Source: Candidatus Woesearchaeota archaeon
Lineage (GTDB): Archaea; Nanobdellota; Nanobdellia; Woesearchaeales; SM23-78
DNA: 64,000 nucleotides
Reading direction: 5' to 3'
Assembly (NCBI GenBank): GCA_019322375.1
Contig: JAHWIP010000003.1
Coordinates: 6,792-70,791, forward strand
Shown here: positions 6,120 to 46,639 of the stretch, in pieces
Layout of the letters: each line of letters opens with the position of its first letter
How positions within the stretch are numbered: the stretch's first letter is position 1
Program-made: the position numbers and the translations under genes
Notes under the pieces: model-generated
Databases searched by the model: none
Told to the model about the DNA's origin: nothing
The model's input: only the letters and a program-made list of their open reading frames with translations

Positions 6120-6147
6120 GCAGAATAAGTCTGGAAAGAAAAAGCCT

Positions 6148-6597
6148 ATGCAAAAAAAATCCAGGCAAAACAAGGGCATATATTCCTTAGCCACTTCCTT
6201 CTTATTTATTATCATATTAATATTTGTGGTCATAGCTGTGGTTTTCTTTTTTAACCTGTTAAAAGCCAAGAGAATGCAGGCAAGTGATGAGCTAGTAAAA
6301 TATGTGCATATAAGGGATGCTAAGAACAAGATTCTTTCATCTGAGTGCTATACGCATATTATAGAAGAAGCAGATGCTGAGCAGGAGTGCTTTCTGCCTG
6401 AAGGCTTTATCAAGGGATATGTTATTGAGATGCTGGTTTATCCTAACTGCACAACCCAGCACAAGACATGGGAGCATATGCTTGTTGAAGATGAAGCAGG
6501 GGCTGGTGAAGAAGGAGAAATTTATCCTTACTTTGTGCCTGTTCAAGCCAATACCACAGGCAATATTTGCCCTGGAAAACTAAAGGTGATATATTAA
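6148..6597 (+). CDS. Pilin-like secreted protein
   Basis: Internal ATG 6148 gives MQKKSRQNKG-IYSLATSFLFIIILIFVVIAVVFFF. The track start 6085 overlaps the previous gene. Confidence 0.5.
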   Translation: MQKKSRQNKGIYSLATSFLFIIILIFVVIAVVFFFNLLKAKRMQASDELVKYVHIRDAKNKILSSECYTHIIEEADAEQECFLPEGFIKGYVIEMLVYPNCTTQHKTWEHMLVEDEAGAGEEGEIYPYFVPVQANTTGNICPGKLKVIY

Positions 6598-6628
6598 AAG
6601 ACAGTATATTAAAAGGTGGTTCACTAAA

Positions 6629-8074: not shown

Positions 8075-8127
8075 ATCAGAATAAATTAAATATATAGAAA
8101 GAAATAATATATAACGAGGTTGGTACT

Positions 8128-32754: not shown

Positions 32755-33042
32755 ATGGATAAAAAAGCCCAGGGTCTGAGTATGAATGTTATTATAATAG
32801 CAGCAATAGCTCTTTTAGTGCTTATCATTCTTGCTGTTCTTATCCTGAGAGCAGGTAAAGGAGTGACTGAAGGTACAGGGTGCAGAGGTGTTGGAGGAAT
32901 TTGTTATTCTAGCTGCACAGACTTGATTGAGGACAGAGGCGGAATGTGGGTTAAGAATCTTCCTAACAGCGGAAAGAATGGTGGCTGTTCAATAGACCAG
33001 GTTTGCTGTGTTGAACTATTAGAAACACCTGAGGATTACTAA
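32755..33042 (+). CDS. Type IV pilin-like protein with a six-Cys module (paralog A)
   Basis: GAGGTGA lies 6 nt upstream. MDKKAQG-LSMNVIIIAAIALLVLIILAVLIL. Module CRGVGGICYSSC...GGCSIDQVCCVE. Confidence 0.7.
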   Translation: MDKKAQGLSMNVIIIAAIALLVLIILAVLILRAGKGVTEGTGCRGVGGICYSSCTDLIEDRGGMWVKNLPNSGKNGGCSIDQVCCVELLETPEDY

Positions 33043-33044
33043 AA

Positions 33045-33335
33045 ATGAAGTTCTTGAATAATAAGAAAGGAGTCCAGCTAACCCTTTCTACAGTGGTTAT
33101 TGCAGTGCTTGTAATCATTGTGCTCATAGTGTTGATAGTGATTTTTACCCAGGGAACAGGCTTGTTCAACATAGGAATAACCAGCTGCGCTGATAGGGGA
33201 GGTAATTGTAATTACGAATCAGCAGATCAATGCGTTGATACTGGCGGCAGTGTTTACAGGTTTGGCAAGTGCACCGACGGGGTTTGCTGTATTCCTAAGG
33301 ACAAGCTTTCAGGGCAAGATGATAATCAAGACTAA
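33045..33335 (+). CDS. Type IV pilin-like protein with a six-Cys module (paralog B)
   Basis: MKFLNNKKG-VQLTLSTVVIAVLVIIVLIVLIV. Module SCADRGGNCNYESADQC...GKCTDGVCCIP. Confidence 0.7.
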   Translation: MKFLNNKKGVQLTLSTVVIAVLVIIVLIVLIVIFTQGTGLFNIGITSCADRGGNCNYESADQCVDTGGSVYRFGKCTDGVCCIPKDKLSGQDDNQD

Positions 33336-35157
33336 TAAGAAGAGGGCTGAGCTCACTATAACCCAAGTAGTACTCATGGTTCTGGGTGTAGTTGTTCTTA
33401 TTGTGCTGCTTTTTGTTTTGAAAATAATACCCACAGGAATTAGAAGTCTTACGAGCTGCTCTGACTGGGGGCAGTGCAGGCCAGGAAATGTTTGCGCACC
33501 AAATGAATACATAAAATTTGAAGCAAAGGATGACTGTCCTGCAAACCATGTGTGCTGCGTGCCTACAACCACAAGGCCAGGACCTCTTCAGGATTTTAAT
33601 GAAAAAGAGCTTGAATACCTGAGAAATGCTATTATCATAAAGCTTAACAATGACCCTACGCCTATAAGCGATGTAGCAAGCCTTAACTTAAAAGTTGATA
33701 CTAATTATACATTTCGTATAAGTATTAATGATAAGCTCACCAAGGATAAAAAAACAAGTGAAAAGCTTGGCCCTTGCGCTGTTTATGTGGTTGACACAAG
33801 AGAAGCAGGCAAGAAATATTTATTAACAAATAAAGGCTGGGACTTGATTCTTTCTGACAAAGAGATTGATTTGAGCGGCATAGAGCTGGCTGAGTGCACT
33901 GAAGAAAGCATTAGGTTAAAAAAATATTCTCCTTCACTAAATGATGTTTACAAGGACTTGGTGCTGTATGTTATTCTTTTGGATAAGGAAGTTGTTGATG
34001 CACTTGAAGTATTAGAAACACACGACCCTGGCTTTGTTAAACTAACTGCTCCTGGGTTTGGCAGTGGAATTAATCTCCCTGATAGGGGGATGGCAGCTTT
34101 TTATAATCTCACAACAATGTACAGCAATGTTGACCACTGGCTTGCTTACAGAGCCATAAGACTTAATGTTGAGCCAGTAGTCCAGATTAGTGGTATGAGC
34201 GGAATATGGGTTGACAAGGACCCAATAACCATATCCTGCCCTGATGTTACCTGCATCAGGTTTGGCTTAAAACTAGTGAAACTAAAAGACAATGATTATT
34301 TACAGTTGGTAGAAGAGTGCAAGAAGCCAGAAGGCTTTAAGTACACTCTTGATTATGTTGCAGGAACAACAACAAAAACAACAGGCATACCATTGAACAT
34401 TAATATTGGAGGTTTCAGGATTCCTCCTCAAAGACAAAAACTCCAGTACATTGTAAGCCAAAAACCAATAACTGTTGTTAATAATAAAGCAGATGTTTTG
34501 ATTGACAGGGCTACCATGCTAAAAACCTTTTACTCAGGAGACCACGAGTTATTAATCGAGGACACTACTTATCTTTGCGTAGAAGCCACCAAGGATGACG
34601 GCTCAAAGGTTCATGGGCTCTCAGAGCAGCCTATTAAAGTGGATGTTTTTCCGCCCATGGTTGACCCTGACAAGGATGTGCAGTTATTTTATCCAGACCC
34701 AGTGATCTCATCAGACATATCAACCCCTTATTATTACAGGAAGTACCCTAAGATTGTTGTTTCTGGATGCTATGATTATGGCCAGAGCGGATGCACTAAT
34801 TATGATTACTATATTCATTCAGGAGAATTTGTTAATCTAAGGTCTCTGACAGCAGAGTGGGAGATAGGAATTGCTTCTTTGATACTAACAGAGGGCTTGA
34901 ATGCCCTGCTCACTTATTTTGCAGAAAAAGATGCTGTCAACACTATATGCCCGTTTATAACCAGCCATTCTTACACAAGAAACACCCGCAATGAGATAAG
35001 AATCCCAAGGCAAGGGCAGGGCATAATATGCATCAGGGTTAGTGACAAAGTAGGCAACAAAGACATTATCTGGAAGGTGCTCTGGACACCTGAAGAGATG
35101 TTCAAGAAAATTATTGCAGAAGGAGTGGCAGAGGCAGAAGAAGCAGTGACTGGATAG
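33319..35157 (+). CDS. Large pilin-like protein: class III-type N-terminus, six-Cys module, ~530-aa unassigned ectodomain
   Basis: The track start 33235 lies inside the previous gene. ATG 33319 gives MIIKTNKKRA-ELTITQVVLMVLGVVVLIVLLFVL, then SCSDWGQCRPGNVC...DCPANHVCCVP. Confidence 0.65.
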   Translation: MIIKTNKKRAELTITQVVLMVLGVVVLIVLLFVLKIIPTGIRSLTSCSDWGQCRPGNVCAPNEYIKFEAKDDCPANHVCCVPTTTRPGPLQDFNEKELEYLRNAIIIKLNNDPTPISDVASLNLKVDTNYTFRISINDKLTKDKKTSEKLGPCAVYVVDTREAGKKYLLTNKGWDLILSDKEIDLSGIELAECTEESIRLKKYSPSLNDVYKDLVLYVILLDKEVVDALEVLETHDPGFVKLTAPGFGSGINLPDRGMAAFYNLTTMYSNVDHWLAYRAIRLNVEPVVQISGMSGIWVDKDPITISCPDVTCIRFGLKLVKLKDNDYLQLVEECKKPEGFKYTLDYVAGTTTKTTGIPLNINIGGFRIPPQRQKLQYIVSQKPITVVNNKADVLIDRATMLKTFYSGDHELLIEDTTYLCVEATKDDGSKVHGLSEQPIKVDVFPPMVDPDKDVQLFYPDPVISSDISTPYYYRKYPKIVVSGCYDYGQSGCTNYDYYIHSGEFVNLRSLTAEWEIGIASLILTEGLNALLTYFAEKDAVNTICPFITSHSYTRNTRNEIRIPRQGQGIICIRVSDKVGNKDIIWKVLWTPEEMFKKIIAEGVAEAEEAVTG

Positions 35158-35229
35158 CAAGTTAACTTAACATCTCCCTTCTTAATAAAACCGAAAGTTT
35201 ATTATAATTCTGTTATGATAGATTAGGAT

Positions 35230-35334
35230 ATGAAAAAAGGAGATTTGTCAACACTGGCAACTGTTATAATTATATTATTAACTCTTGTGTTTATAATCTT
35301 TATTTTCGGAAGAATCTATGGGTGGTGGGGTTGA
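35230..35334 (+). CDS. 34-aa helix-only micro-pilin-like ORF
   Basis: MKKG-DLSTLATVIIILLTLVFIIFIFGRIYGWWG. Ends 5 nt before the ATG of the next pilin-like gene. Below the track cutoff. Confidence 0.45.
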   Translation: MKKGDLSTLATVIIILLTLVFIIFIFGRIYGWWG

Positions 35335-35339
35335 AAAGG

Positions 35340-36299
35340 ATGAGCAGGATTAATAAAAAAGCAGGATTAAGCACATTACAAACAATTATCATTATCCTGC
35401 TCATATTTGTTGTTCTATTAATCTTTTACCAGGACTTAAGAGCAACTCTGTTAAAAAAATCTAACAGAGAGATATGCAGGGCTACTGCTCTTGCCCAGTC
35501 TGTTGCTGTGTGGGCGCCTGAAGGAGAGAATTTGGTTAGTCTTGAATGCAAGACTTACAAGGTTGTGTTTTTTGAAGACCATGTTGAGATTAATGATGAA
35601 ATAATTGAGGTGTATGACCCCAGGAAAAAAGATGTTGTTAAAAAGTTTAATGGCTTAACAGAGGACATTGTTAACTGGGTGATTGCAGAGGAGCTCAGAT
35701 GGTGCTGGTGGCAGTTTCTTGAAGGAAAAAAAAGCTTGTTAAACATGAAGAACTTTTTTGGCTCAGCAGAAAGAACCTGTTTTTTATGCACTGAAATAAC
35801 TTTTGATGAATCAGTTAAGACTGATGAATTCAAAAACTTCTTTAAGTACACCAAGGAAAAAACAATGCCTAATTCTGAAATGACTTATTACCAGTACTAT
35901 GCTGAGGAGCCCAGGAAGTGCATCTGGAGGTATGAAGAGATTATTGATGCAGATAATTGCTGGGAAGCCTATGCACAGGGCATCTCGCCTAATATAATAA
36001 CCAGCACTGTACAGCATTTTAAAGAGGCATTTAGCCATTGCTCAGGCATAATACCTGCTCTTTCAACTTACTGGTCTTCTGTAACGCATTATAGTGTTGT
36101 TAAAAACATAACCTTTGAGAAAGATAAAAAGTATGCTGTGACTTTTGTAAGGGAAGGAGCAACCTCAAGGCATCTTGAGCTAGAAAAATTAGTAAAAGGA
36201 GAGACTGATTGTTTTTTTGAAACTTATTTTTCATATGTAATCCCTTCTGATGAACTAGGAAAGCACTGCGGCCCTGTGAGAAGAGGCTCTATGAAATAA
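35340..36299 (+). CDS. Pilin-like Cys-containing protein (paralog of 36301-37197)
   Basis: ATG 35340 gives MSRINKKAG-LSTLQTIIIILLIFVVLLIF. Shared blocks with its neighbour: IAEELRWCWWQF/IADSLKTCWGTW, TCFLCTEITFDE/YCHVCSVIDFDD, KYAVTFV/PYAVMFV. Confidence 0.65.
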   Translation: MSRINKKAGLSTLQTIIIILLIFVVLLIFYQDLRATLLKKSNREICRATALAQSVAVWAPEGENLVSLECKTYKVVFFEDHVEINDEIIEVYDPRKKDVVKKFNGLTEDIVNWVIAEELRWCWWQFLEGKKSLLNMKNFFGSAERTCFLCTEITFDESVKTDEFKNFFKYTKEKTMPNSEMTYYQYYAEEPRKCIWRYEEIIDADNCWEAYAQGISPNIITSTVQHFKEAFSHCSGIIPALSTYWSSVTHYSVVKNITFEKDKKYAVTFVREGATSRHLELEKLVKGETDCFFETYFSYVIPSDELGKHCGPVRRGSMK

Positions 36300-36300
36300 A

Positions 36301-37197
36301 ATGAACAAGAAAGCCATTGTGTTTGACAAACTCATGACAGCTGTTCTGATAATCATTGTGCTGGCTGTTTTTATTTTTTTCCTGGTAAAGATAAAAATCC
36401 ATGCCTTAAAAATTGTTGAGGATTCTGAGTGCAAAGCAAGCATTATCAGCCATGCAACTCTTTTAAGGGTGACTGGAGAAGACACAACACCAGACATTCA
36501 CTGCCCTACCAAATATTATACTCTTCCAAAAGAAAGCAATGAAGAAATAAAGCATTATATTGCTGATTCATTAAAGACCTGCTGGGGAACCTGGGGCAAA
36601 GGAGAGCTTCAGTTATTTAACCAGCAAGGCTATTACTGCCATGTGTGCTCTGTGATTGATTTTGATGATAAAACAAAAAAAATACAAGGCCTGAACAATT
36701 ACCTGATTAATACGCCAACAGATAAAGATACCCCTCTCACATACATGGACTACCTCACAGGTTATGCATCTGAAAAAGCAGACCCTGCATTAATACAAGA
36801 GGTTCAGGAAAAAGGTTTTTCAGACACCATACACACTTCAAAGCCTTATGCAGTCATGTTTGTTTATGCCAAAGGAAAAACAGGTGTTAAAGCATTTCTT
36901 GATGGCATGGATGCTCTTGGCCTGGGAACAACAGGAGGAGGAATCACTACAGGGCTTGCACTGGGCTCAGCAGCAGGCATAGGGCTGGCAGCAGCAGGAG
37001 TGGCAAGTGGTGGAGCAGCAATTGTTATAGCAGGAGCAGTCACAGCTGCTGGCGGAGTGATAGGCTATATAACAGCAGATGATACTCACTGGATAGCCCT
37101 TACATTGTTCACAGAATACAATGCTGAAACCCTGAAAAGCATTGGGTGCGAGATAGCCCCTGCAAAGCAGGACAGAAAAACTGATGAAACTGGTTAA
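36301..37197 (+). CDS. Pilin-like protein with a Gly/Ala-rich hydrophobic C-terminal segment
   Basis: MNKKA-IVFDKLMTAVLIIIVLAVFIFFLV. C-terminal GLGTTGGGITTGLALGSAAGIGLAAAGVASGGAAIVIAGAVTAAGGVIGYI is glycine-zipper-like. Confidence 0.65.
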   Translation: MNKKAIVFDKLMTAVLIIIVLAVFIFFLVKIKIHALKIVEDSECKASIISHATLLRVTGEDTTPDIHCPTKYYTLPKESNEEIKHYIADSLKTCWGTWGKGELQLFNQQGYYCHVCSVIDFDDKTKKIQGLNNYLINTPTDKDTPLTYMDYLTGYASEKADPALIQEVQEKGFSDTIHTSKPYAVMFVYAKGKTGVKAFLDGMDALGLGTTGGGITTGLALGSAAGIGLAAAGVASGGAAIVIAGAVTAAGGVIGYITADDTHWIALTLFTEYNAETLKSIGCEIAPAKQDRKTDETG

Positions 37198-37280
37198 AAA
37201 ACTTAATTTGGTGATTTAGTTAAAGCGAAAGCATTAAAAAACACAAAAGCATAAAAAATCTTGAAACAAGAGGTTTTAAC

Positions 37281-37442
37281 ATGAGTTATGGCATGAACCG
37301 TATGAACAAGAAAGCCCAGGAAACAATGAGTCCTGAAGGCGGCACACTAAGAATAATATGGTTTGTGATTGTCTTATTAGTACTTATTATTATTGTTTAT
37401 TTTGTTGCAACAAATTTTAAACTAATCAAACTGCCATTTTGA
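37281..37442 (+). CDS. 53-aa helix-only micro-pilin-like ORF
   Basis: MSYGMNRMNKKA-QETMSPEGGTLRIIWFVIVLLVLIIIVYFVATNFKLIKLPF. Ends 9 nt before the amidase gene. Below the track cutoff. Confidence 0.4.
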   Translation: MSYGMNRMNKKAQETMSPEGGTLRIIWFVIVLLVLIIIVYFVATNFKLIKLPF

Positions 37443-37451
37443 GGTTAAGAA

Positions 37452-38285
37452 ATGAAGCTGATAAATGCTATTGGTGCCATTGTTTTAGGATTGTTTGTAT
37501 TAATTATACTAATCCTGATATTTGTTCCAAACACATTCAAAATTGTTAATAATATCTTTCTTATTATTGGCCAACAATTAGGCTTTAACCCAGCAGTTCC
37601 TGGAGGTGAAGACTATGGCTTTGGAGGGCTTTATGGAAGCACACCATCAACTATTCCAACTGATGCTGAGCCAGAGCGTATTAAAAAAGTCAAAACAAAG
37701 CCAGGCATTCCTGTTGATGAAAAATATTTTGGAGAGCTCTACTCTTATTCCAGGGAAGGAGCACTTGTTGACACCATTGTACTGCACCACACAGGGGATA
37801 ATAAAGCTTCGCAAACATTCAATACTCTGAAAAAAAGAGAGCTTTCAGTGCATTATGTTGTTGACAAGGACGGCACAATATATTACTTGATAGATGAGAG
37901 CACAAAAGGCGCTCATTGCGGTTGCTGCCCGCCAAGCAACCCGACTTGTTGCAAAGCAGGAGAAAACTGTCCTGTTTGCCTGAATGAAGAATTAAGAGAA
38001 ATGAATGCCAAATCAATAGGCATTGAAATTGTTAACACAGGATATGCAGATGATTACTACACTAATGAGCAATATGTTTCAATAGATAAACTGATAAATG
38101 ATATTGCAAGCAGATGGACTGCTATTGCTGTTGATAATGAGCATGTGCTTGGGCATTACCAGATTACACTGGGTAAGTGGGATCCTTCACCTGTTTTTAA
38201 ATGGGCAAGAATACAAGGATTGTCAGGCCACTTAATGCTTGCAGACATAGGAAAAAAAGCACCCTCTGAATACGGCTATACATGA
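37452..38285 (+). CDS. Membrane-anchored N-acetylmuramoyl-L-alanine amidase (Amidase_2 / PGRP fold)
   Basis: N-terminus MKLINAIGAIVLGLFVLIILILIFV. Catalytic-domain pattern IVLHHTG ... SVHYVVDKDGTIY ... AKSIGIEIVNTG ... VLGHYQITLGKWDPSPVF (GH....K.DP..F). Cys-rich insert CGCCPPSNPTCCKAGENCPVC. Confidence 0.7.
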   Translation: MKLINAIGAIVLGLFVLIILILIFVPNTFKIVNNIFLIIGQQLGFNPAVPGGEDYGFGGLYGSTPSTIPTDAEPERIKKVKTKPGIPVDEKYFGELYSYSREGALVDTIVLHHTGDNKASQTFNTLKKRELSVHYVVDKDGTIYYLIDESTKGAHCGCCPPSNPTCCKAGENCPVCLNEELREMNAKSIGIEIVNTGYADDYYTNEQYVSIDKLINDIASRWTAIAVDNEHVLGHYQITLGKWDPSPVFKWARIQGLSGHLMLADIGKKAPSEYGYT

Positions 38286-38370
38286 GTTTGTGACAGAGCA
38301 TTAAAATACACTGAGACACATTAAAATAATAGCAAAGTTTATATACAAAGATTTGCAAGAATTATATGAG

Positions 38371-39081
38371 ATGAAACCCTTGTTTTCAAAGAATAAAAAA
38401 AAGAAAGGCTTGTCAACCCTTGGAACCATTATAGGACTAATACTTTTACTAGCAGTCCTGGCAATCTTTCTTCCGGTTATTCTTCGCGCAGGCAAAACAA
38501 CTGATGAAGTCCCCAAAGACATAATGGACCCTGTCAAGGCATGCCATGGAAAAGAGAGTGGTGAGGAATGTTATCTTGGCGGAATAGCTGGTTTTTGCAG
38601 GGATTTCAGGTGTGTTATAGAGACTTCAGCAAAAAACATGAAAGAATCAATAACTATTTTCAAGACAACTTTCAAGGACAGCATTGAGAATTGCCAGAAA
38701 GATGTAGCCCAGTGCCCTGAGGCAACAAAGGCTCTGGACTTAATGATTGGTTATTTCACAGATGCAGGGCTTGTTGTTCATAGATTAGCCTCAGACAGAG
38801 CAGAGTTCAGGCTATACCAGGAAAAAAACTTTTTAGGTATTGGAGGGCATAAAGCCTCTTTTGTTTTTTACGGCGATACTTGTGTAATAGAGAAGAAAGG
38901 GGATAATGATGTTCCTACATCGGGCAAAAACTTTAAGCTTGGGATCAAAAAAGAAAGCAAAGGTTTTGTAGTATATGACCTTGAAAAAACTGCTGCTGAA
39001 CTAGGCACTTTTATATCTTTCAGGCATCAAACCCAGAATGATGCAACCACCCCGGTCTGTGTTTATTACACTACAGATTAG
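38371..39081 (+). CDS. Type IV pilin-like protein
   Basis: ATG 38371 gives MKPLFSKNKKKKG-LSTLGTIIGLILLLAVLAIFL, then ACHGKESGEECYLGGIAGFCRDFRCV. Confidence 0.65.
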   Translation: MKPLFSKNKKKKGLSTLGTIIGLILLLAVLAIFLPVILRAGKTTDEVPKDIMDPVKACHGKESGEECYLGGIAGFCRDFRCVIETSAKNMKESITIFKTTFKDSIENCQKDVAQCPEATKALDLMIGYFTDAGLVVHRLASDRAEFRLYQEKNFLGIGGHKASFVFYGDTCVIEKKGDNDVPTSGKNFKLGIKKESKGFVVYDLEKTAAELGTFISFRHQTQNDATTPVCVYYTTD

Positions 39082-39154
39082 CAATGCTAAAATAAATTTT
39101 ATTATCATAAAATATTTAATTATTAAAAAAAATTGATTGCAAAGGTGAACTATT

Positions 39155-39808
39155 TTGTTAACAAAATCAAGAAAAGGACTTTCCCTTTTAGGAATGCTTG
39201 GTGGTGTAATCATAGTAGTTGTACTGGTTATTGTTCTAATCAATATTTTCATTAACAGAGGAGCCAAGCCTCTGGAGAACATCACTGGAGAGATAATTAC
39301 CTGCGGAGGACTTGCAGGTGTTATTGGCGGGGGAGAAGGGGTTTGTATAAGCAAAAGCACTCTTTGCGACGGCCCAAAGCTTCCTAATCCTGAGTGCAAG
39401 GCTAGCAATCCTGACAAGCCTTATTGCTGTTTTAAACAAGCAGAGGGTGCTGAAGGCCCTCCTGGTTCTGGCCCGACGGCTTGTGTTAAGGATGTTGACC
39501 CCTGGGAACCTGTAATTGTTGAAGACGATTATGTTTGCGCTTCTAGTAAGGAGGCGTGCGAGCAGACTATGAATTTTGTTAATGTTCTGAATGAATGTGC
39601 TCAATTTAGTGAAGGTTGTGAATGCAAGGATGAAGTAGAAGGAATTGAGCACCCTTGTGAAGGCAATCTTAAATGGGCTCTTTTTGGCCTTGATAAATCT
39701 GAGCCTAAACATGAAGTTGTTATGAAATGCTATCCTGCTGTTAAGGAATGCGAGGATTCAAATGAATGTGAGCGTTGTGTTCCAAACCATTTTGAATGTG
39801 CAGAATAA
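39155..39808 (+). CDS. Type IV pilin-like Cys-rich protein with a six-Cys module
   Basis: TTG start with AAAGGTGA 6 nt upstream. LTKSRKG-LSLLGMLGGVIIVVVLVIVLINIF. Module TCGGLAG...GVCISKSTLC...PECKASNPDKPYCCFK. Confidence 0.6.
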   Translation: MLTKSRKGLSLLGMLGGVIIVVVLVIVLINIFINRGAKPLENITGEIITCGGLAGVIGGGEGVCISKSTLCDGPKLPNPECKASNPDKPYCCFKQAEGAEGPPGSGPTACVKDVDPWEPVIVEDDYVCASSKEACEQTMNFVNVLNECAQFSEGCECKDEVEGIEHPCEGNLKWALFGLDKSEPKHEVVMKCYPAVKECEDSNECERCVPNHFECAE

Positions 39809-39872
39809 TAACTCTGTTAATTCTTCCCCACCGAAACAAATTTATACTTATTAAGCAAGTTTCTTATGTATT

Positions 39873-41027
39873 ATGGCTTGGATGAATAAAAAAGGCGGTG
39901 AAAGACAGATTGGACTTAGCGAACTTACGCTTTATGTGTTTGTCATTCTGCTTATAGTTGTCTTATTTATTGTTAGCTATAGGTTTATCGGAGCTTTTCT
40001 CAGAGGAGGAGTTGATAAAGACACTGAGTCTAATTTTGTGTCACTGGCAGAGAACCTTGAGTTAATGATTGAGAAAGACGCAGGGTTTGAATACCAGACC
40101 ATGATTTTTTATATGAAAGAAAAGCATTTTGTGTTTGGCTTTACATCCAAGCAGGCTCTTTCCTCTTCTCCAGCAAAGCATTTTATGCCTGAGAAATGCA
40201 ATGAGCACTCATGCCTTTGCCTGTATAAAGAACCTGATGATGTAGCAGATGACAAGCCTGTCAAGTGCATATCTTTTGGGCACAAGGTTATTTTTCATGG
40301 CTATGACTTAAAAAAAGTGTCTGCTGCTCAGCTGGTTTATCCTGACCTAGGAGCAGAGCTGGGTGCGCGTGAGCAAGGAGAATCTTATTATTTATCTGAT
40401 TATCCTGAAACTATTTCTTTTTATATAGAAGGCTTGTTTATTGGCCCTTCACTAGACAATCCTCATGACCTTTACCTGGAAAAAATAGTTGCTAATAACA
40501 GGGTGCATGTTTTTGTGACTCCTGGCCTTAAGCAGGAAATGATAGAGACAAGGATTGAACTGTTATCTCCCTGCCCTTTTGATTCTGATGAAGAATGCAT
40601 GGGCAAGAGAAGAAACTCTGTTCTGGGCAGTAATGATTATTGTTTTTATGATGAGAGCCAGGCTAAGTGCTTGTTAAAAAAAGATGTGGATGCCTGTTCT
40701 TTCTCAGACAGAATTACACAGCCCTGTCTTTGCGGCTCTACATTTATAGACCCAGACACCAGGACAGAAGAAACCTATTGTTATCAAAAATCTGATAAAA
40801 GGATTTTTGTCCTTCCATTTGACTGCGATTCAGAGGAATTAAGAGAAAAAAAATGCCTTGCTTACTGCAGGGCAATCACTGATACAGAGGACTGCGACAC
40901 AAGAGAACAGGATTACTGTGATAAAGACCCTTGCGAGTTTGCTTCTAAAGAAAAGCCGTGCGAAGTGCGCCCATTAGGCAAAAAAACTTATTGTGCTTCT
41001 TACTCAAGGGATTACAGCATGGATTAA
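39873..41027 (+). CDS. Pilin-like, very Cys-rich ectoprotein
   Basis: MAWMNKKGGERQIG-LSELTLYVFVILLIVVLFIV. Many Cys in the C-terminal two thirds (e.g. DCDSEELREKKCLAYCRAITDTEDCDTREQDYCDKDPCEF). Confidence 0.65.
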   Translation: MAWMNKKGGERQIGLSELTLYVFVILLIVVLFIVSYRFIGAFLRGGVDKDTESNFVSLAENLELMIEKDAGFEYQTMIFYMKEKHFVFGFTSKQALSSSPAKHFMPEKCNEHSCLCLYKEPDDVADDKPVKCISFGHKVIFHGYDLKKVSAAQLVYPDLGAELGAREQGESYYLSDYPETISFYIEGLFIGPSLDNPHDLYLEKIVANNRVHVFVTPGLKQEMIETRIELLSPCPFDSDEECMGKRRNSVLGSNDYCFYDESQAKCLLKKDVDACSFSDRITQPCLCGSTFIDPDTRTEETYCYQKSDKRIFVLPFDCDSEELREKKCLAYCRAITDTEDCDTREQDYCDKDPCEFASKEKPCEVRPLGKKTYCASYSRDYSMD

Positions 41028-41113
41028 TAATAGTTGCTTGGATTAATAATAATTATTAGTAATTGTTCTAAAAACCTAAATCTTTTTAAACTCGTTTATC
41101 AACAATTTAAGTT

Positions 41114-41596
41114 ATGAGTTTTTATGATTTTAATAACAAGAAAGCCAGGAGCATGATTGCAACTTCTTTTTATGTATTATTTGGCTTGATGCTGGGAGCC
41201 TTTTTTGTGATAGCTGTTCTTGGAAGAGTTAAGGATGCTGTTGGTGATTCTGCTTATCATAAAAAGTTTTATTCCAGGGACCTGGCCTTGCTTGTTGATG
41301 CCTTGCATGCCAGCAATGGAAAGTTTGTTGTTGATTATGATGTTAATCTTCCAGACAACATGCTCCTGGACTTTGGTCTTGAGCCTGGAGCAGTCATCTT
41401 AACAGACCGCTCTGACACACTCATGGATAACAGGCATAAAACTGCTTTTTTGTTTGGGCATAATGATTATGTAAAAATAATTCCTGTCACAATTGACAAG
41501 AACATGCTTAAATTGTTAGTGGTGGCTGATAACAACACCATTACATTTGAAGAGAAAGGGATGGATGATTTAAGTACAAATGATAAAGAGGAGTGA
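41114..41596 (+). CDS. Pilin-like protein
   Basis: MSFYDFNNKKA-RSMIATSFYVLFGLMLGAFFVIAVLG. Confidence 0.55.
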   Translation: MSFYDFNNKKARSMIATSFYVLFGLMLGAFFVIAVLGRVKDAVGDSAYHKKFYSRDLALLVDALHASNGKFVVDYDVNLPDNMLLDFGLEPGAVILTDRSDTLMDNRHKTAFLFGHNDYVKIIPVTIDKNMLKLLVVADNNTITFEEKGMDDLSTNDKEE

Positions 41597-41629
41597 TTTA
41601 AGTATAAATGATTTAAGCAAAGAATAAGG

Positions 41630-42169
41630 ATGAGAATAATAAAAAAGAGGCTGAGCCTGAATAACAAAAAGGGGTTGGGAACTGAGGAGTGGCTTGAACT
41701 TCTGCCTTACATAGTGTTAACAGTGGTTGTAATGGTGGCTATTTTTGCCCTGATAAACCTTTTTGTTAATATTTCTGTTGATGTTAAGCCTGTTCAAAGG
41801 GAAGTTCTTTTCTACAGGCTGATGTATGCTCCTAACTCAATTATGTATATGGATAATCTTACTGGCAGGGTTCACCCTGGTGTTATTAGCTGGGATAATT
41901 TTACCAACCAGACCCTTGACAAATCTATTGCTTATGATTATGAAAGGCATATATCTGCAAAATTGATATTATATAACCTGGAAAAAGAGCCAATCAAAAC
42001 AGCTTATCTTAATGGGCTGTGGTTTAACCGCTTAGAGCCTTTGGCCAGGAGCAGGATTAAGGGTGCAGGCAGTGCAGAGCTCTACACCAAGAAAATCCCT
42101 GTTGTTTACAGGAGAAATGATGTGAACAGGGCAGGCTATCTTAAAGTTGAGATTATCATTCCAAACTAA
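41630..42169 (+). CDS. Pilin-like protein
   Basis: MRIIKKRLSLNNKKG-LGTEEWLELLPYIVLTVVVMVAIFALINLF. Confidence 0.55.
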   Translation: MRIIKKRLSLNNKKGLGTEEWLELLPYIVLTVVVMVAIFALINLFVNISVDVKPVQREVLFYRLMYAPNSIMYMDNLTGRVHPGVISWDNFTNQTLDKSIAYDYERHISAKLILYNLEKEPIKTAYLNGLWFNRLEPLARSRIKGAGSAELYTKKIPVVYRRNDVNRAGYLKVEIIIPN

Positions 42170-42184
42170 CAGCGAGTGATTTGA

Positions 42185-42853
42185 ATGAGCAGTTTGATTA
42201 ATTCAAGAAAAGGCATGAAAACCATTGTGACAATATTATCAGTTGTCTTGTTAGTATTCATATTCATAATATTTATTTTTCTTTTCAGGCTTGGCGCCAG
42301 GAACAAGGCAGAAAGCATAGAATCAGATTTTTCCTCTGTAAGAACAGAGTTTTTGCTTAAAACCTTTTTAAGAACACCAGCTGTTATTAGTGATGATTAC
42401 CCTGTTGAAGACTTGTTCCCTGGCATAGGAGAAGGCATTACCAATGCAGACCTGGTATCATGGACATGTAGTAAGGATAAAGACAGGAATTACAAGACCT
42501 TGAAAAACTCAATAAACACTTTTTTTGATGAGGCATATGAAGATGACTGGGAAGCATGGATAATCTATTCTAATCCTAAAGTAAAAAAGAAGGGCTTTGG
42601 GCACAAGAGTTATCTTGAAGGGATTGAGAAAAGCATAAACCGCTTGCTAACAGCAGGACAGCTGGCTTTGCTAGCAGCCAAATCATCAGACCCAGCCAGC
42701 AGGGGATTAATCTTCAAGCTTTTTATAACTCCTTATCGTGAAGCAGGCTTTGGCTCCCAGGTGGTTCCTTGCCCAGACGGAGAACTAGCCCAGATAATGC
42801 TTTACTCCCACACAGCATTTATTGAAATAAAACACCTGAAAGGCTTAACATAA
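42185..42853 (+). CDS. Pilin-like protein
   Basis: MSSLINSRKG-MKTIVTILSVVLLVFIFIIFIFLF. Confidence 0.55.
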   Translation: MSSLINSRKGMKTIVTILSVVLLVFIFIIFIFLFRLGARNKAESIESDFSSVRTEFLLKTFLRTPAVISDDYPVEDLFPGIGEGITNADLVSWTCSKDKDRNYKTLKNSINTFFDEAYEDDWEAWIIYSNPKVKKKGFGHKSYLEGIEKSINRLLTAGQLALLAAKSSDPASRGLIFKLFITPYREAGFGSQVVPCPDGELAQIMLYSHTAFIEIKHLKGLT

Positions 42854-42865
42854 GATAAAATAAAA

Positions 42866-45800
42866 ATGGATAAAGTAAAACTGAGATTAAAAAACAGAAA
42901 AGCACAGGTTTACCCGCTTTTTGTAGTGGTCTTTACAATAGTGGCCTTGACAACAGCCCTTATTGGCTTGAGCAATGCAAAAGAGGTTACTGATTTATCT
43001 GGCAGGGAAATGCTTATCGGCACCAAGCAATCAGCTGTTTTTGCATCTCTTCAAGACGCAGATGCTGTTAGTTTATTCATAGAGCAGGCAGCAGAATTTG
43101 CAGGCCAGCAAGCCCTGGATAAAATAAGAAAATCATGCTTTTTTGGAGTTGATGAGGAACAAGAAGTTGATGAGTGGGAGTCTCCATGCGGCAAGTTTGT
43201 TTATCCTCTTTGGAGCACTAATGAAAATCTTTGCCTTCCTGATTGTGAAACAGCTTTTGTCAATGCCTTTAACAAGGATTTTTTAAGCCGAACAAACAAG
43301 TATTATGAGTTCACAAACATAGAGCTGCCTATTTCTTATAACATGAGCCTGGAAATACATGACAATCATTTTTTTGTTCATGGAACCTCTGACACAGAAC
43401 TAAGGATTAATGTGGTTGATATTCAGAGCAGGATTAAGTCTCCCCTGGCAATAGCCCAGACTTATGAGGAAGGCAGGCTTATCTGGCCTGTTGATTACTC
43501 TGACCACACAATCACCTCTTGCTTTGGTGAAAGAGATGTTGTTGGGGGGAGCAAATACCATCCTGCTGTTGATATCCGGGCTCCAAAAGGAACACCAGTG
43601 CTGGCAGCTGCTTTAGGAAAAGTGATTCTTACTGACCCTTGCTGGGGAAGAATTGTTATTAATCATGGCTCTGGCTTAAGCACAGAGTATCTTCACTTGG
43701 AAAAAATTGATGTTAAGGTTAATGATGATGTGGTGCAGGGACAAAGAATAGGAACTTCTGGCAGCAATGGCTGTGACACAAGAGAGTTTGTTCCGCACCT
43801 GCATTTTGGGGTTATATATCAAGGTGTTCAGTCACCCATGCATTATAAAGGGCAGGAAATAGTTTTGAGCAACAACCATATCCAGCCCATGTGCTTGATT
43901 GAAAAAGGGTATGCTGCTAAGCCAGAAAGCAACTGCAACCAGCTTGTGAACACAGACTTAGACAAGATTTGTGAATTGTATAATCTGCCAGAAGAATTTT
44001 TTGAATCATCAGAATCATCAAAGCCATCAGAGCCATCAGAACCAGACCAAGACACTTCTTCTGAAGAAAGTGCTGATGCAGAGAATGCTGGTGCAGAAAG
44101 TGTTAATGCAGAAAGCACTGAGCTGGATTATTCTCTGGCACAGGCTCCTGGCAGCTATGCTTTTAAACCATCTTTTACCTTGAGGGTTAACAAGAAAATA
44201 GAAAACCCTATTGAGCCAGTAACAGAGTGGTTTGAGAACACCTGGAACGAGTGCGAGGATGACCCTTGGAAATGTTTAAGAGAAAAAATGAGTGAGTTTA
44301 ATGAGCAGGACTATGATTACAAGCTCATGTTTGCTGACAGGTGCGAGGAAGGCTATCACTTGTTCTATGACATACTGGAGTTTTTTGAGGACTGCTTTTC
44401 AAACCAGAAGTATGGGTGCTCATGCGAGTTTAATTTATCAGATGCTTTTTCAATAACTGACTTGCGAATAGTTTTTGACACACAAGCAAACACAGCCTCT
44501 CTTTTTTCCAAGCAGGGAGATAAGCCTGGTGATGAATATGAATTAATTGATTCATACCAGTTCTATTATGGAAGCATAACCAAGCCAGCCCCTGCTTCTC
44601 CTTATAGGTATTATGTGTATCAGCTTGATTATGATGATTATGGGGAGCTGGAAAATGCAGAGCTTATGCAAATGAAGTCATTGCTTGATGTATTTGATGT
44701 TGTGCCTTTTTTTGATTACAAAGAACTAAGACTGGCAAAGCCAGGAGAGGCTGAGCAAGGATATTTTGTGAACACAGAAACAATTCAGTGCAAGTACAAG
44801 AAGAACAAGTTCAGGCTGTGTGCAAAGCCAGCACAGGAAAGAGAAGACTTGTTCCCTATAAGGTTTGCTTTTCACTTAAAAGACAAGCCTCCTGAGCCTG
44901 TTAAAAAAGGAGATGTGGAAATTATAGAGGTGGAGGAGAGTTCTGAGTCAGATGTTGACAAGGTAATGCAGGCAGCAGGCTTTCTAGGAACCATATTCCC
45001 TCCTCTAGGCTACTTGTTCACAGCAATTAATATTCTCAGTGTGTTGGAAGACTTTAAACCAAGAAAGTTCGAGGTAATAGTTGATGTTCCTCTTGACAAG
45101 GATGGCAAACCCCTGGATGTTGCTGGCTATGAAGTTTATTGCAGTGATTACCTGACAAACATCCTGCCAGTGGATGTTTTGGATAAATATAATCCAAGTC
45201 ATTTTGTTGTGATGGCTAATGATGAGATGAATAAAAAAGTAAGCCAGCTAGACCAGTATGTTAAGAAGAACCCTTACACAGACTTTCTGAATCTTGAGAG
45301 CTGTGATGTGCCTGTGAGCAAGTTCACAGGAGAAACCATTCTTGTGCCTGGAATCAAAGGGGTTGTTAAGGACGGTAAAATGGTTTTCAACCTTCATAAA
45401 TGCGGGGACTTGGCAATAATTATAGATAAACTAATAAGAAAAGACTACTGTGTATCACTAATACCTGTTGACAAGAATGGCAACAAGATAATGGAGCATG
45501 CTGTGAGCAACTGCGCGCAAACCAATTCACTGCTTGACCTGGTTATTAGTGAGATGATAGAGGAACAGCTAGGAGAATTTATTCCTGCAAGCCTTATACC
45601 TGATAATTTAAAGCCTTATATCAAGCTGCCTGACACAAGCGATATTGTTAATGCAGTAACAGGGGAAGGCAGTTTTGACATGATAGACATTGTTAATCTT
45701 GACAAGCTGGACGCAGACATAAAAAATTATCTTGAGGAATTCGTGGTTGGAACTATTAATGAAGACATAATAGGCACTTCTGTTGTTAATTCTATTGATG

Positions 45801-46639
45801 ACTTAAAGCTCTGGGAAAAACAAACAGTGCTTAACACCCTGTCAAACCAGATAAAAAATGATGATGCAAAAACCTTGTTTGATGCCTTTGTAACAGGAGA
45901 AGGTGTTGCTGAGTCTGCCAAGCGCATGGCTTATGAAAAAGGAGTAGGATATATAGACCAGACAAAAACACCTGAGATACTTAAGGAGATAGCCAAAGGA
46001 GAAGACCCTAAAAGCCTTGCATACCAGGAACTGGTAAAAGCAGCTGAGAAAGAGCTCAGCACTGACGAGAAAAAACAGGCTCTGCTGGAGATAGCCAGGA
46101 GCAGCAGTGGAAGAGAGGTAAAAGATAAGATAATAGAAAAAGCCCTTGAAAAAGGATGCGGCGAGTCATATGGAATAAGTGCAGAGCAGGCAATCAACTG
46201 CCTTGACAATGAAGAGGTAGAAAATATTTATCACAAAGTTCTGACAGACTACAGCACACCAGACAAGGTAAAACAGTTTTTGCTTGACAAGGCAATTGAC
46301 AAGTTTGATGAAAAAACACCAGACGTGCTAAAAGAGATTGTTCTGAAAAGAGACTTTAAAGGAGCAGCAAAGGACATGCTTGAGAAAGAGCTTGACAAGC
46401 TTCCAGACGCTGTTAAGAAAGAGTTTATTACTGATATACTTGAAGGCAGGCTTCCAGATGTTGAGTACTTGCAGCAGGAACTAGTGAAAATGATACCAGC
46501 AGTAAACAATGAATATGTGAATGCCCTGCTAAAAGACGGCAATGTTAAAAACCTGATAGAATCAACCCTTAAATCAGAGATAGAAAAACAACTAGGCTCA
46601 TTCTTCTCAGATGAATGCGTGGCAATTAATAAGGATTGA
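42866..46639 (+). CDS. Giant (1257-aa) pilin-like protein with an M23 (LytM-type) metallopeptidase domain
   Basis: KNRKA-QVYPLFVVVFTIVALTTALIGL N-terminus. M23 motifs YHPAVDIRAP (HxxxD) and PHLHFGV (HxH) at about nt 43478-43841. Acidic S/E linker, an internal hydrophobic segment at about nt 44972-45046, and a K/E-rich repetitive helical C-terminus. Confidence 0.7.
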   Translation: MDKVKLRLKNRKAQVYPLFVVVFTIVALTTALIGLSNAKEVTDLSGREMLIGTKQSAVFASLQDADAVSLFIEQAAEFAGQQALDKIRKSCFFGVDEEQEVDEWESPCGKFVYPLWSTNENLCLPDCETAFVNAFNKDFLSRTNKYYEFTNIELPISYNMSLEIHDNHFFVHGTSDTELRINVVDIQSRIKSPLAIAQTYEEGRLIWPVDYSDHTITSCFGERDVVGGSKYHPAVDIRAPKGTPVLAAALGKVILTDPCWGRIVINHGSGLSTEYLHLEKIDVKVNDDVVQGQRIGTSGSNGCDTREFVPHLHFGVIYQGVQSPMHYKGQEIVLSNNHIQPMCLIEKGYAAKPESNCNQLVNTDLDKICELYNLPEEFFESSESSKPSEPSEPDQDTSSEESADAENAGAESVNAESTELDYSLAQAPGSYAFKPSFTLRVNKKIENPIEPVTEWFENTWNECEDDPWKCLREKMSEFNEQDYDYKLMFADRCEEGYHLFYDILEFFEDCFSNQKYGCSCEFNLSDAFSITDLRIVFDTQANTASLFSKQGDKPGDEYELIDSYQFYYGSITKPAPASPYRYYVYQLDYDDYGELENAELMQMKSLLDVFDVVPFFDYKELRLAKPGEAEQGYFVNTETIQCKYKKNKFRLCAKPAQEREDLFPIRFAFHLKDKPPEPVKKGDVEIIEVEESSESDVDKVMQAAGFLGTIFPPLGYLFTAINILSVLEDFKPRKFEVIVDVPLDKDGKPLDVAGYEVYCSDYLTNILPVDVLDKYNPSHFVVMANDEMNKKVSQLDQYVKKNPYTDFLNLESCDVPVSKFTGETILVPGIKGVVKDGKMVFNLHKCGDLAIIIDKLIRKDYCVSLIPVDKNGNKIMEHAVSNCAQTNSLLDLVISEMIEEQLGEFIPASLIPDNLKPYIKLPDTSDIVNAVTGEGSFDMIDIVNLDKLDADIKNYLEEFVVGTINEDIIGTSVVNSIDDLKLWEKQTVLNTLSNQIKNDDAKTLFDAFVTGEGVAESAKRMAYEKGVGYIDQTKTPEILKEIAKGEDPKSLAYQELVKAAEKELSTDEKKQALLEIARSSSGREVKDKIIEKALEKGCGESYGISAEQAINCLDNEEVENIYHKVLTDYSTPDKVKQFLLDKAIDKFDEKTPDVLKEIVLKRDFKGAAKDMLEKELDKLPDAVKKEFITDILEGRLPDVEYLQQELVKMIPAVNNEYVNALLKDGNVKNLIESTLKSEIEKQLGSFFSDECVAINKD

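What the first reader, a model, noticed from the sequence alone, without database searches (positions are those of the whole stretch)
37452..38285. N-terminally anchored Amidase_2 murein amidase with a Cys-rich insert, embedded in the pilin-like array
After the hydrophobic N-terminal helix and a ~70-aa linker, the sequence follows the Amidase_2/PGRP pattern: IVLHHTG, SVHYVVDKDGTIYYL, AKSIGIEIVNTG, VLGHYQITLGKWDPSPVF. Histidines and an Asp sit where I expect the zinc ligands. A seven-Cys stretch (CGCCPPSNPTCCKAGENCPVC) interrupts the fold between the AH and SIGIE segments, which I do not recall in phage or bacterial homologs. The substrate, the MurNAc-L-Ala bond, is bacterial. Its position inside a pilin-like array suggests it is tethered beside the filament or built into it.
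Basis: partly seen in the sequence, partly recalled or inferred. Interest (0 to 1): 0.8.

Follow-up and report, generated by a model that had tools for sequence, protein, structure and literature searches.

The report
Membrane-anchored murein amidase of a Woesearchaeote
A tiny archaeon with no bacterial-type cell wall of its own carries an intact, membrane-tethered enzyme that cuts bacterial cell walls, encoded inside a conserved pilus-gene cluster next to a second wall-cutting enzyme, which points to a surface apparatus for attacking or feeding on bacteria.

Summary
ORF 37452..38285 (+, 277 aa) matches Pfam Amidase_2 at E = 4.3e-25. All catalytic residues are present: Zn ligands H112, H235 and D244, plus E192 and K242. 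The AlphaFold2 model is confident (pLDDT 88.8) and its closest solved folds are AmpD, AmpDh2 and AmiD.

The contig is archaeal (archaeal RNase P RNA), and NCBI already annotates this exact protein as a Woesearchaeota amidase.

The 7-Cys stretch (residues 156-176) is real but not unique. At least 50 related archaeal or metagenomic sequences carry a Cys loop at the same site. It is almost always 2, 4 or 6 Cys, which suggests disulfide staples. None of the 61 bacterial loci examined has one.

The gene sits in a syntenic array of 13 genes with prepilin-like N-termini, which includes a 1257-aa M23 peptidase. In relatives the same locus holds a pilus ATPase and a prepilin peptidase. In one relative (P0073) the amidase domain is fused into the ortholog of the giant M23 protein.

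This amidase itself lacks the prepilin cleavage motif. It is therefore more likely a membrane-tethered partner of the apparatus than a filament subunit.

Verdict: a new variant of a known kind, of moderate interest.

The parts
37452..38285 (+). Amidase gene, 277 aa: N-terminal membrane anchor, flexible linker, extracellular Amidase_2 catalytic domain
   Evidence: ORF. Pfam PF01510 E = 4.3e-25. AF2 pLDDT 88.8. Foldseek top hits are AmpD, AmpDh2 and AmiD. The identical protein is in NCBI as a Woesearchaeota amidase.
37455..37526 (+). N-terminal hydrophobic helix (residues ~2-25). It is a signal anchor without a [KR][GA] prepilin cleavage motif.
   Evidence: DSSP helix 2-24 in the model. Hydropathy. 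The motif scan is negative for the query, P0002 and P0003.
37767..38192 (+). Amidase_2 domain as matched by Pfam (residues 106-247). Zn ligands: H112 (37785-37787), H235 (38154-38156), D244 (38181-38183). Catalytic residues: E192 (38025-38027), K242 (38175-38177).
   Evidence: The residues align to AmiD H35, H151, D161 and K159 and to the SIGIE Glu.
37917..37979 (+). Cys-rich loop CGCCPPSNPTCCKAGENCPVC (residues 156-176), inserted between the conserved HxG and N..SIGIE segments
   Evidence: The loop is modelled with pLDDT 83-95. In relatives the loop has 2, 4 or 6 Cys.
37281..37442 (+). Conserved 53-aa 'headless' pilin-like mini-ORF (NKKAQ motif plus one helix) directly upstream of the amidase
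   Evidence: Counterparts lie directly upstream of the short-form amidase in L001 (47 aa) and L009 (44 aa). It is in a different frame in L001, so it is a separate gene.
32755..46639 (+). Co-directional array of 14 genes. Thirteen have prepilin-like N-termini and many are Cys-rich. The array contains the amidase.
   Evidence: The same gene order is found in L001/L002.
42866..46639 (+). Giant (1257 aa) pilin-like protein with a Peptidase_M23 domain (residues 231-321, nt 43556-43828; HPAVD and HLH motifs intact). It is the functional partner of the amidase.
   Evidence: Pfam E = 1.8e-21. Motifs. The ortholog P0073 (54% identity) carries M23 plus Amidase_2 in one chain.
26..1891 (+). Polytopic membrane protein, a possible pilus platform component (weak evidence)
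   Evidence: tblastn 20% identity, E = 4e-10, to the ~720-aa polytopic protein that follows the T2SSE ATPase in L006. It has 10-12 hydrophobic segments. There is no Pfam hit.

Best explanation
What it is. The gene encodes a catalytically competent zinc N-acetylmuramoyl-L-alanine amidase of the AmpDh2/AmiD/AmpD type. A single N-terminal helix anchors it in the membrane of a Woesearchaeote, and a ~45-residue flexible linker holds the catalytic domain outside the cell.

Where it belongs. It is one component of a conserved, chromosomally inherited type-IV-pilus-like surface apparatus. That apparatus also contains a giant pilin-like M23 endopeptidase.

How it probably works. The two enzymes would together cut the peptide stems (amidase) and cross-links (M23) of bacterial peptidoglycan where the archaeon touches a bacterium. 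This would open the wall for attachment, penetration or nutrient extraction. On the assumption (not tested here) that the archaeon itself has no murein, it would need no immunity protein.

The Cys-rich loop. It replaces the loop that in AmpDh2 and AmiD lies between the HAG and SIGIE segments. It is most likely a disulfide-stapled elaboration of a loop that I infer lines the substrate groove, stabilising the exposed enzyme and possibly tuning stem-peptide specificity.

Shown here: fold, catalytic residues, membrane anchor, synteny, and domain fusion in relatives.

Inferred: enzymatic activity, extracellular orientation, bacterial target, cooperation with the pilus, and disulfide bonding.
For: Enzyme identity:
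- Pfam Amidase_2 E = 4.3e-25.
- The family profile matches AmpDh2 at E = 2e-35, and AmpDh3 and AmiD at about 2e-24.
- H112, H235, D244, E192 and K242 are invariant or nearly invariant in 71 homologs. They align to AmiD H35, H151, D161, the SIGIE Glu and K159.
- The AF2 model has pLDDT 88.8 and pTM 0.80. Foldseek top hits are AmpD 2y2b, AmpDh2 4bol and AmiD 3d2z.

Organism: archaeal RNase P RNA lies at 32269-32573, with NAC, Sec61beta, RPA and RadA nearby. The protein is identical to an NCBI Woesearchaeota entry.

Apparatus:
- All 13 neighbours have prepilin-like N-termini.
- The same gene order occurs in L001/L002, whose amidase is only 48% identical.
- In L006, L007, L016 and L017 the amidase lies 3-8 kb downstream of a T2SSE ATPase and a polytopic protein. 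In L006 and L007 a Peptidase_A24 prepilin peptidase is ~9 kb downstream.
- Within +-6 kb of the amidase, pilin-like N-termini make up 38% of ORFs (113 of 296) in archaeal loci and 7% (34 of 462) in bacterial loci.

Functional coupling to the M23 protein:
- P0073 is a 54%-identical ortholog of the window's giant protein, with an Amidase_2 domain inserted after M23.
- P0084 has the same scaffold with Amidase_2 instead of M23. P0081 and P0130 combine SLT with Amidase_2.
- The N-terminal module of long-form amidases is homologous to the N-terminus of the giant protein (hhalign probability 99.1%, E = 1.4e-18).

Cys loop: counts of 2 (26 sequences), 4 (16) and 6 (7) dominate. Odd counts arise when the extra 'HCG' Cys is present (and in P0020, from an extra Cys near the loop's end). 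Bacterial loci have none.

Literature: large extracellular murein-degrading proteins in Woesearchaeota and Pacearchaeota have been proposed to target bacterial hosts (PMC8204110; PMC9723730). Archaeal peptidoglycan hydrolases have been shown to kill bacteria (PMC12352652).
Against: - There is no experimental activity, localisation or host data.
- This amidase lacks the prepilin cleavage motif and any recognised peptidoglycan-binding domain.
- No ATPase or prepilin peptidase lies within this 64-kb window. Only a weak platform-like ORF is present at 26..1891.
- Disulfide bonding is inferred from Cys parity only. Model coordinates could not be inspected, and many Woesearchaeota live in anoxic water, where extracellular disulfides are less obviously favoured.
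- The CPxC-containing 4-Cys core could instead bind a structural metal.
- The position of the loop relative to the substrate groove rests on my knowledge of AmpD and PGRP structures, not on a measurement here.
Confidence: 0.6

Rival explanations
1. Scavenging enzyme. The tethered amidase (with M23) digests free peptidoglycan debris or dead bacterial walls at the archaeal surface to harvest peptides and amino sugars. There is no contact-dependent attack and no mechanistic role for the pilus.
For: DPANN archaea have minimal biosynthesis and are proposed recyclers of cell-wall material (PMC9723730). The enzyme has no wall-binding domain. A membrane tether keeps products near the cell.
Against: The amidase is persistently embedded in pilus loci, and its domain is fused into a 1489-aa pilin-like scaffold. 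Both argue for a structural association rather than a simple digestive ecto-enzyme. No muropeptide or peptide transporter is seen next to it in the window.
Confidence: 0.2
2. True minor pilin. The protein is incorporated through its N-terminal helix into the filament (tip or shaft) and displays the amidase along the pilus.
For: 44 of 71 family members carry a [KR][GAS] motif plus hydrophobic helix typical of class III signal peptides. Long forms share the pilin-like N-terminal module of the giant protein. Sulfolobus sugar-binding proteins show that non-pilin proteins can carry such signals (my own knowledge of the bindosome literature).
Against: This protein and its nearest relatives P0002 and P0003 have no basic residue plus Gly/Ala cleavage site before the helix. 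Upstream stop codons exclude a longer N-terminus.
Confidence: 0.1
3. The target is not bacterial murein but an archaeal polymer, for example pseudomurein of a methanogen host. Alternatively, the domain only binds glycan as an adhesin, as non-catalytic PGRPs do.
For: Woesearchaeota are often proposed as partners of methanogens (my own knowledge). Amidase_2/PGRP domains can act as pure receptors.
Against: The full catalytic set (H, H, D, E, K) is conserved across the family, which argues against a binding-only role. The companion domains M23 and SLT are murein-specific. Known pseudomurein hydrolases belong to a different family (my own knowledge).
Confidence: 0.06
4. Viral or prophage endolysin captured in the contig.
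For: The best PHROG hits are endolysins and amidases, E down to 7e-17.
Against: There are no viral structural or replication genes nearby. The cluster is flanked by NAC, Sec61beta, RNase P RNA and RPA. It is syntenic across relatives whose amidases are only 30-50% identical. This indicates vertical chromosomal inheritance.
Confidence: 0.02

Closest known systems
AmpDh2, AmpDh3 (Pseudomonas aeruginosa) and AmiD (E. coli): periplasmic, membrane-tethered Amidase_2 enzymes
   Same: The fold and the catalytic residues (His, His, Asp zinc site, Glu, Lys) are the same. These are the best sequence and structure matches. Like them, this enzyme is tethered to a membrane and faces the wall compartment. 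By my own recollection AmpDh3 is also delivered as an antibacterial effector by a type VI secretion system.
   Different: The anchor is a transmembrane helix, not a lipoprotein anchor. There is no C-terminal PG_binding_1 domain. The loop between HAG and SIGIE is replaced by a 7-Cys loop. The host is an archaeon that presumably lacks murein (not checked here). The genomic context is a pilin array.
Large extracellular murein lytic transglycosylase proteins of Woesearchaeota and Pacearchaeota (Castelle et al. 2021, PMC8204110; Vigneron et al. 2022, PMC9723730)
   Same: They come from the same lineages and rest on the same idea: an extracellular murein hydrolase in a wall-less archaeon, proposed to act on bacterial hosts or prey. 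Relatives P0081 and P0130 combine SLT with this amidase domain.
   Different: The catalytic class differs (amidase versus glycosidase). The papers read here mention neither pili or pilins nor amidases (word searches returned zero occurrences).
Modular archaeal peptidoglycan hydrolases that kill bacteria (Strock et al. 2025, PMC12352652)
   Same: These are archaeal murein hydrolases of bacterial origin used against bacteria. M23 domains were noted in four Nanoarchaeia genomes.
   Different: That survey required a catalytic domain plus a wall-binding domain. This amidase has no wall-binding domain and is membrane-tethered rather than secreted.
Archaeal proteins with class III (prepilin-like) signal peptides that are not pilins, e.g. 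Sulfolobus sugar-binding proteins of the bindosome (my own knowledge)
   Same: A pilin-like N-terminus is used to mount a functional globular domain on a surface assembly. This holds for the giant M23 protein and for most family members.
   Different: The cargo here is a cell-wall hydrolase. This particular amidase has lost the cleavage motif.
Type IV pili of episymbiotic Saccharibacteria / CPR bacteria (PMC9894109, PMC11623550; titles and abstracts only)
   Same: An ultrasmall, host-dependent cell uses type IV pili for association with a bacterial host.
   Different: Those are bacterial pili. Only the titles and abstracts were seen here, and they do not mention hydrolase-bearing pilins.

Membership tests
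Amidase_2 (PF01510), AmpD/AmiD/AmpDh2-type zinc amidase | Significant match to the family HMM above the curated threshold | tested here: met
   89 bits against a cutoff of 26, E = 4.3e-25, profile positions 5-131 of 131
Amidase_2 (PF01510), AmpD/AmiD/AmpDh2-type zinc amidase | Zinc ligands His, His, Asp (Cys in T7 lysozyme and PGRPs) at the canonical positions | tested here: met
   H112, H235 and D244 are invariant or at least 90% conserved. They align with AmiD H35, H151 and D161.
Amidase_2 (PF01510), AmpD/AmiD/AmpDh2-type zinc amidase | Catalytic Glu (SIGIE) and Lys (K-x-D) | tested here: met
   E192 is invariant and K242 is at least 90% conserved. K242 aligns to AmiD K159.
Amidase_2 (PF01510), AmpD/AmiD/AmpDh2-type zinc amidase | Alpha/beta fold of T7 lysozyme and AmpD | tested here: met
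   AF2 pLDDT 88.8. Foldseek probability 1.00 to AmpD, AmpDh2, AmiD, PGRPs and T7 lysozyme.
Amidase_2 (PF01510), AmpD/AmiD/AmpDh2-type zinc amidase | Hydrolysis of the MurNAc-L-Ala amide bond | not testable with these tools
   Needs an enzyme assay on sacculi or muropeptides
Archaeal type IV pilin / class III signal peptide protein | Short basic N-terminus ending in [KR]-[GAS], cleaved by the prepilin peptidase, directly before the hydrophobic helix | tested here: not met
   The N-terminus is MKLINAIGAIVLG... with no such motif, and upstream stops prevent extension. The motif is present in all 13 neighbours and in 44 of 71 homologs.
Archaeal type IV pilin / class III signal peptide protein | N-terminal hydrophobic alpha-helix of about 20 residues | tested here: met
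   Helix at residues 2-24 in the model. Hydropathy 2.43.
Archaeal type IV pilin / class III signal peptide protein | Encoded with pilus biogenesis genes (T2SSE ATPase, platform, Peptidase_A24) | tested here: inconclusive
   Met in relatives' loci L006, L007, L016 and L017. In this window there are only pilin-like genes and a weak platform-like ORF at 26..1891.
Archaeal type IV pilin / class III signal peptide protein | Incorporation into a filament | not testable with these tools
   Needs filament purification and mass spectrometry, or cryo-EM
Modular secreted peptidoglycan hydrolase (catalytic plus wall-binding domain, sensu Strock et al. 2025) | A recognised wall-binding domain (PG_binding_1, LysM, SH3 or similar) | tested here: not met
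   Amidase_2 is the only Pfam family above its curated threshold, even at E <= 0.1; the one other hit, Flp1_like (13.1 bits against a cutoff of 33.5), is below threshold and is not a wall-binding domain
Phage endolysin | Location in a viral or proviral gene set | tested here: not met
   PHROG hits are to the domain only. The flanks are housekeeping genes, and the locus is syntenic among distant relatives.

The most novel reading that the evidence does not exclude
Woesearchaeota and related DPANN archaea build a type-IV-pilus-like organelle whose pilin-like subunits and membrane partners carry interchangeable murein hydrolase heads: Amidase_2, M23 and SLT, split or fused in different genomes. 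This would be a contact-dependent 'wall-breaching' device used by archaea to parasitise or prey on bacteria. The disulfide-stapled loop would be a lineage-specific adaptation of the amidase to extracellular use.
Probability: 0.3. Interest if true: 0.8.

Novelty: new variant of a known kind. Interest (0 to 1): 0.5.

Why it matters
It is still largely unknown which organisms host most Woesearchaeota and how the cells attach to them. An intact murein amidase and an M23 endopeptidase are hard-wired into a conserved pilus locus. They are fused together in some genomes and split in others.

This gives a concrete, testable molecular link between a DPANN surface organelle and bacterial cell walls. It argues for bacterial rather than archaeal partners for these lineages.

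The ectodomain is small (about 200 residues), Cys-stabilised and needs no immunity protein. That makes it a tractable candidate for biochemical proof of archaeal anti-bacterial enzymes. It lies outside the 'modular' class already surveyed.

Tried and rejected
1. Stop-codon read-through or a split gene. The 53-aa ORF at 37281..37442 is in the same frame as the amidase, separated by TGA plus 3 codons. I rejected read-through because in L001 the equivalent 47-aa ORF is in another frame, and both ORFs have their own helix.

2. Prophage origin. Rejected on context and synteny.

3. Donor phylogeny. The first Biopython run timed out. A numpy neighbour-joining tree on 152 columns puts all 24 archaeal loci in one clade, but bootstrap support is only 31 of 100. 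The nearest bacterial sequences (Pyrinomonadaceae, alpha- and beta-proteobacteria, Chryseobacterium) are all 30-35% identical. No donor can be named.

4. Direct BLASTP between a long-form amidase and the giant protein was marginal (E = 0.016). The profile-profile comparison settled it.

5. Literature searches for pilin-linked amidases in Woesearchaeota or DPANN found nothing specific.

6. Cys-Cys distances in the model could not be measured, because model coordinates are not exposed.

7. Pfam found nothing for 9 of the other array proteins. PHROGs found nothing for the two of them that were scanned, the 640-aa and 384-aa proteins.

Full report

Yes. A GAGGT Shine-Dalgarno-like motif precedes the ATG, and stop codons at 37440 and 37446 exclude a longer N-terminus.

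Pfam Amidase_2 (PF01510) matches residues 106-247 over almost the whole model, at E = 4.3e-25 and 89 bits against a gathering score of 26. The best solved relatives by sequence are AmpDh2, AmpD, AmpDh3 and AmiD.

The stretch CGCCPPSNPTCCKAGENCPVC is residues 156-176 (nt 37917-37979). It contains all seven cysteines of the protein.

**2. What organism and what protein?**

The window carries an archaeal RNase P RNA at 32269-32573 on the minus strand, scoring 121 bits. It also carries NAC, Sec61-beta, RPA and RadA genes.

The identical protein exists in NCBI as 'N-acetylmuramoyl-L-alanine amidase [Candidatus Woesearchaeota archaeon]'. The bare annotation is therefore not new.

**3. Catalytic competence**

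In alignments of 38 and 71 homologs, H112, H134, H155 and E192 are invariant. H235, K242 and D244 are invariant or at least 90% conserved.

A profile of the family hits AmpDh2 at E = 2e-35, AmpDh3 at 1.6e-24 and AmiD at 2e-24. In the printed AmiD alignment the family's H, H, K-x-D and SIGIE positions fall on AmiD H35, H151, K159/D161 and the SIGIE Glu. To my knowledge these are the zinc ligands and the catalytic Lys and Glu of that enzyme.

An AlphaFold2 model built on the 71-sequence alignment is confident: mean pLDDT 88.8, pTM 0.80, and 83-98 across residues 80-277. Foldseek against the PDB returns AmpD, AmpDh2, AmiD, AmpDh3, phage amidase endolysins, PGRPs and T7 lysozyme, all at probability 1.00.

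The model gives a helix at residues 2-24, a second helix at 28-42 and a low-confidence linker at about 43-70. A well-ordered domain starts at about residue 72. This fits a type II membrane protein with an extracellular catalytic head. The orientation is inferred, not shown.

**4. The Cys-rich insert**

Relative to AmpDh2 the loop between 'HAG' and 'N..SIGIE' is about 17 residues longer. It is not unique to this protein.

- About 15 of the first 71 homologs carry it.
- An exhaustive phmmer scan of 1.84 billion representatives found 2110 relatives at E <= 0.001. Many of the closest have a Cys-bearing loop at the same place.
- Tabulating the loop over all sequences in hand gives 2 Cys in 26, 4 Cys in 16 and 6 Cys in 7.
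- Counts of 5 or 7 occur when the Ala of 'HAG' is also Cys ('HCG', as here). One sequence (P0020) has its extra Cys elsewhere, near the loop's end.
- None of 61 bacterial loci has two or more Cys there.

The even-number rule, and the existence of many 2-Cys versions that could not bind a metal on their own, favour disulfide staples. Plausible pairs are C158-C176, C166-C173 and C159-C167, with C156 free. This is an inference: I could not read coordinates from the model.

A structural metal site on the CxxC-containing 4-Cys core is not excluded.

From what I know of AmpD and PGRP structures, this loop borders the stem-peptide groove. If so, it may affect specificity. That was not measured here.

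**5. Genomic context**

From 32755 to 46639 there are 14 co-directional genes. Thirteen begin with an [NS][KR]K[GA]-type motif followed by a hydrophobic helix, which is the signature of archaeal class III (prepilin-like) signal peptides. Many are Cys-rich.

The last of these is a 1257-residue protein with a Peptidase_M23 domain (E = 1.8e-21). Its HxxxD and HxH motifs are intact.

The same gene order recurs in contigs L001/L002, whose amidase is only 48% identical. The shared order runs from NAC and Sec61-beta on one side to RPA on the other, and includes a 47-residue mini-ORF directly upstream of the amidase.

More distant homologs also sit at the end of long arrays of small genes without Pfam hits, again followed by RPA.

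In L006, L007, L016 and L017 the amidase lies a few kilobases downstream of a T2SSE-family ATPase and a ~720-residue polytopic protein. In L006 and L007 a Peptidase_A24 prepilin peptidase is also nearby.

Across 24 archaeal loci, 38% of ORFs within 6 kb of the amidase have pilin-like N-termini. Around bacterial homologs the figure is 7%.

The locus is therefore a vertically inherited type-IV-filament locus. It is not a mobile element or a prophage, although the domain resembles phage endolysins.

**6. Functional coupling to the giant M23 protein**

P0073 (1489 aa) is a 54%-identical ortholog of the window's giant protein over both arms. It carries an Amidase_2 domain, with a 4-Cys loop, exactly where the window protein has an acidic, Ser-rich linker.

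P0084 has the same scaffold with Amidase_2 in place of M23. P0081 and P0130 combine SLT and Amidase_2.

The N-terminal ~175-residue module of the 'long-form' amidases (340-390 aa) is homologous to the N-terminal ~185 residues of the giant proteins (hhalign probability 99.1%, E = 1.4e-18).

In this lineage, then, a pilin-like module carries interchangeable murein hydrolase heads. The window's genome has the M23 head on the giant scaffold and a trimmed, separately encoded amidase.

**7. Filament subunit or neighbour?**

Of 71 family members, 58 have an N-terminal hydrophobic helix and 44 have a [KR][GAS] motif before it. The query and its closest relatives (P0002, P0003) have the helix but not the motif.

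For this protein, a membrane tether next to the apparatus is better supported than incorporation into the filament. The conserved 'headless' mini-pilin ORF just upstream (window, L001, L009) may be connected with this, but I have no test for that.

**8. Most likely mechanism**

A zinc amidase on a flexible stalk would work with an M23 endopeptidase mounted on a pilin-like giant protein. Together they would cut bacterial peptidoglycan at contact sites of a Woesearchaeote with a bacterium.

This fits published proposals that small-genome Woesearchaeota and Pacearchaeota use large extracellular murein hydrolases on bacterial hosts (PMC8204110; PMC9723730). It also fits the demonstration that other archaeal peptidoglycan hydrolases kill bacteria (PMC12352652).

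The main rival is plain scavenging of wall debris. Less likely alternatives are a role as a true minor pilin, a pseudomurein or binding-only role, and a viral origin.

**9. Novelty**

Already known:
- the Amidase_2 family and its chemistry;
- this protein's automatic annotation;
- the general idea of murein hydrolases in DPANN archaea.

Not found in the searchable literature, although that library lacks many subscription-journal papers:
- the systematic embedding of an amidase family in type-IV-pilus loci;
- the swapping, fusion and fission of hydrolase heads on a pilin-like scaffold;
- the lineage-specific even-numbered Cys loop.

I rate it a new variant of a known kind, with moderate interest (0.5).

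**10. Origin**

A neighbour-joining tree of 154 domain sequences groups all archaeal loci together, but with weak support (31 of 100 bootstraps). The nearest bacterial sequences are all about 30-35% identical. A single old acquisition is plausible, and the donor is unresolved.

Noticed in passing
window 48092..50200 (-): A 702-aa protein with Sigma-70 regions 1.2, 2, 3 and 4 on an archaeal contig. Bacterial-type sigma factors are already reported as prevalent in Woesearchaeota (PMC8204110).
   Followed up: partly
window 26..1891 (+) and 4441..9744 (+): A polytopic 621-aa protein is weakly similar to the protein that follows the pilus ATPase in L006. A second array of Cys-rich pilin-like genes follows it (198, 215, 170 and 538 aa). 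The pilus ATPase may lie just upstream of the window.
   Followed up: partly
window 37281..37442 (+); L001 9843..9986; L009 9716..9850: A conserved 44-53-aa 'headless' pilin-like ORF (basic motif plus one helix, no globular domain) lies directly upstream of the short-form amidase genes. Its function is unknown.
   Followed up: partly
window 32755..33042, 33045..33335, 33235..35157, 39155..39808 (+): Right after the helix, these pilin-like proteins share a 6-Cys module of the type C..GG.C...C...G.C...(V/Y)CC. It looks like a small disulfide-knotted head domain. There is no Pfam match.
   Followed up: no
window 58923..61412 (-): An 829-aa protein with a pilin-like N-terminus, a Peptidase_C25-like domain (E = 1e-7) and a MopE-type metal-binding motif. 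It is another surface hydrolase candidate.
   Followed up: no
L011, L014, L018, L019, L022, L025, L064: A second class of archaeal homologs has the amidase domain at the C-terminus of giant proteins (860-2059 aa, 10-38 Cys). These are not surrounded by pilin-like genes. In L018 an M23 match lies directly upstream, within the same giant ORF.
   Followed up: no
L009, L010, L013, L015, L036: Several GTDB representative MAGs that carry this Woesearchaeota-type locus are titled 'uncultured Methanosarcinales archaeon'. The synteny with Woesearchaeota and Nanoarchaeia loci suggests the labels are wrong or are placeholders.
   Followed up: no
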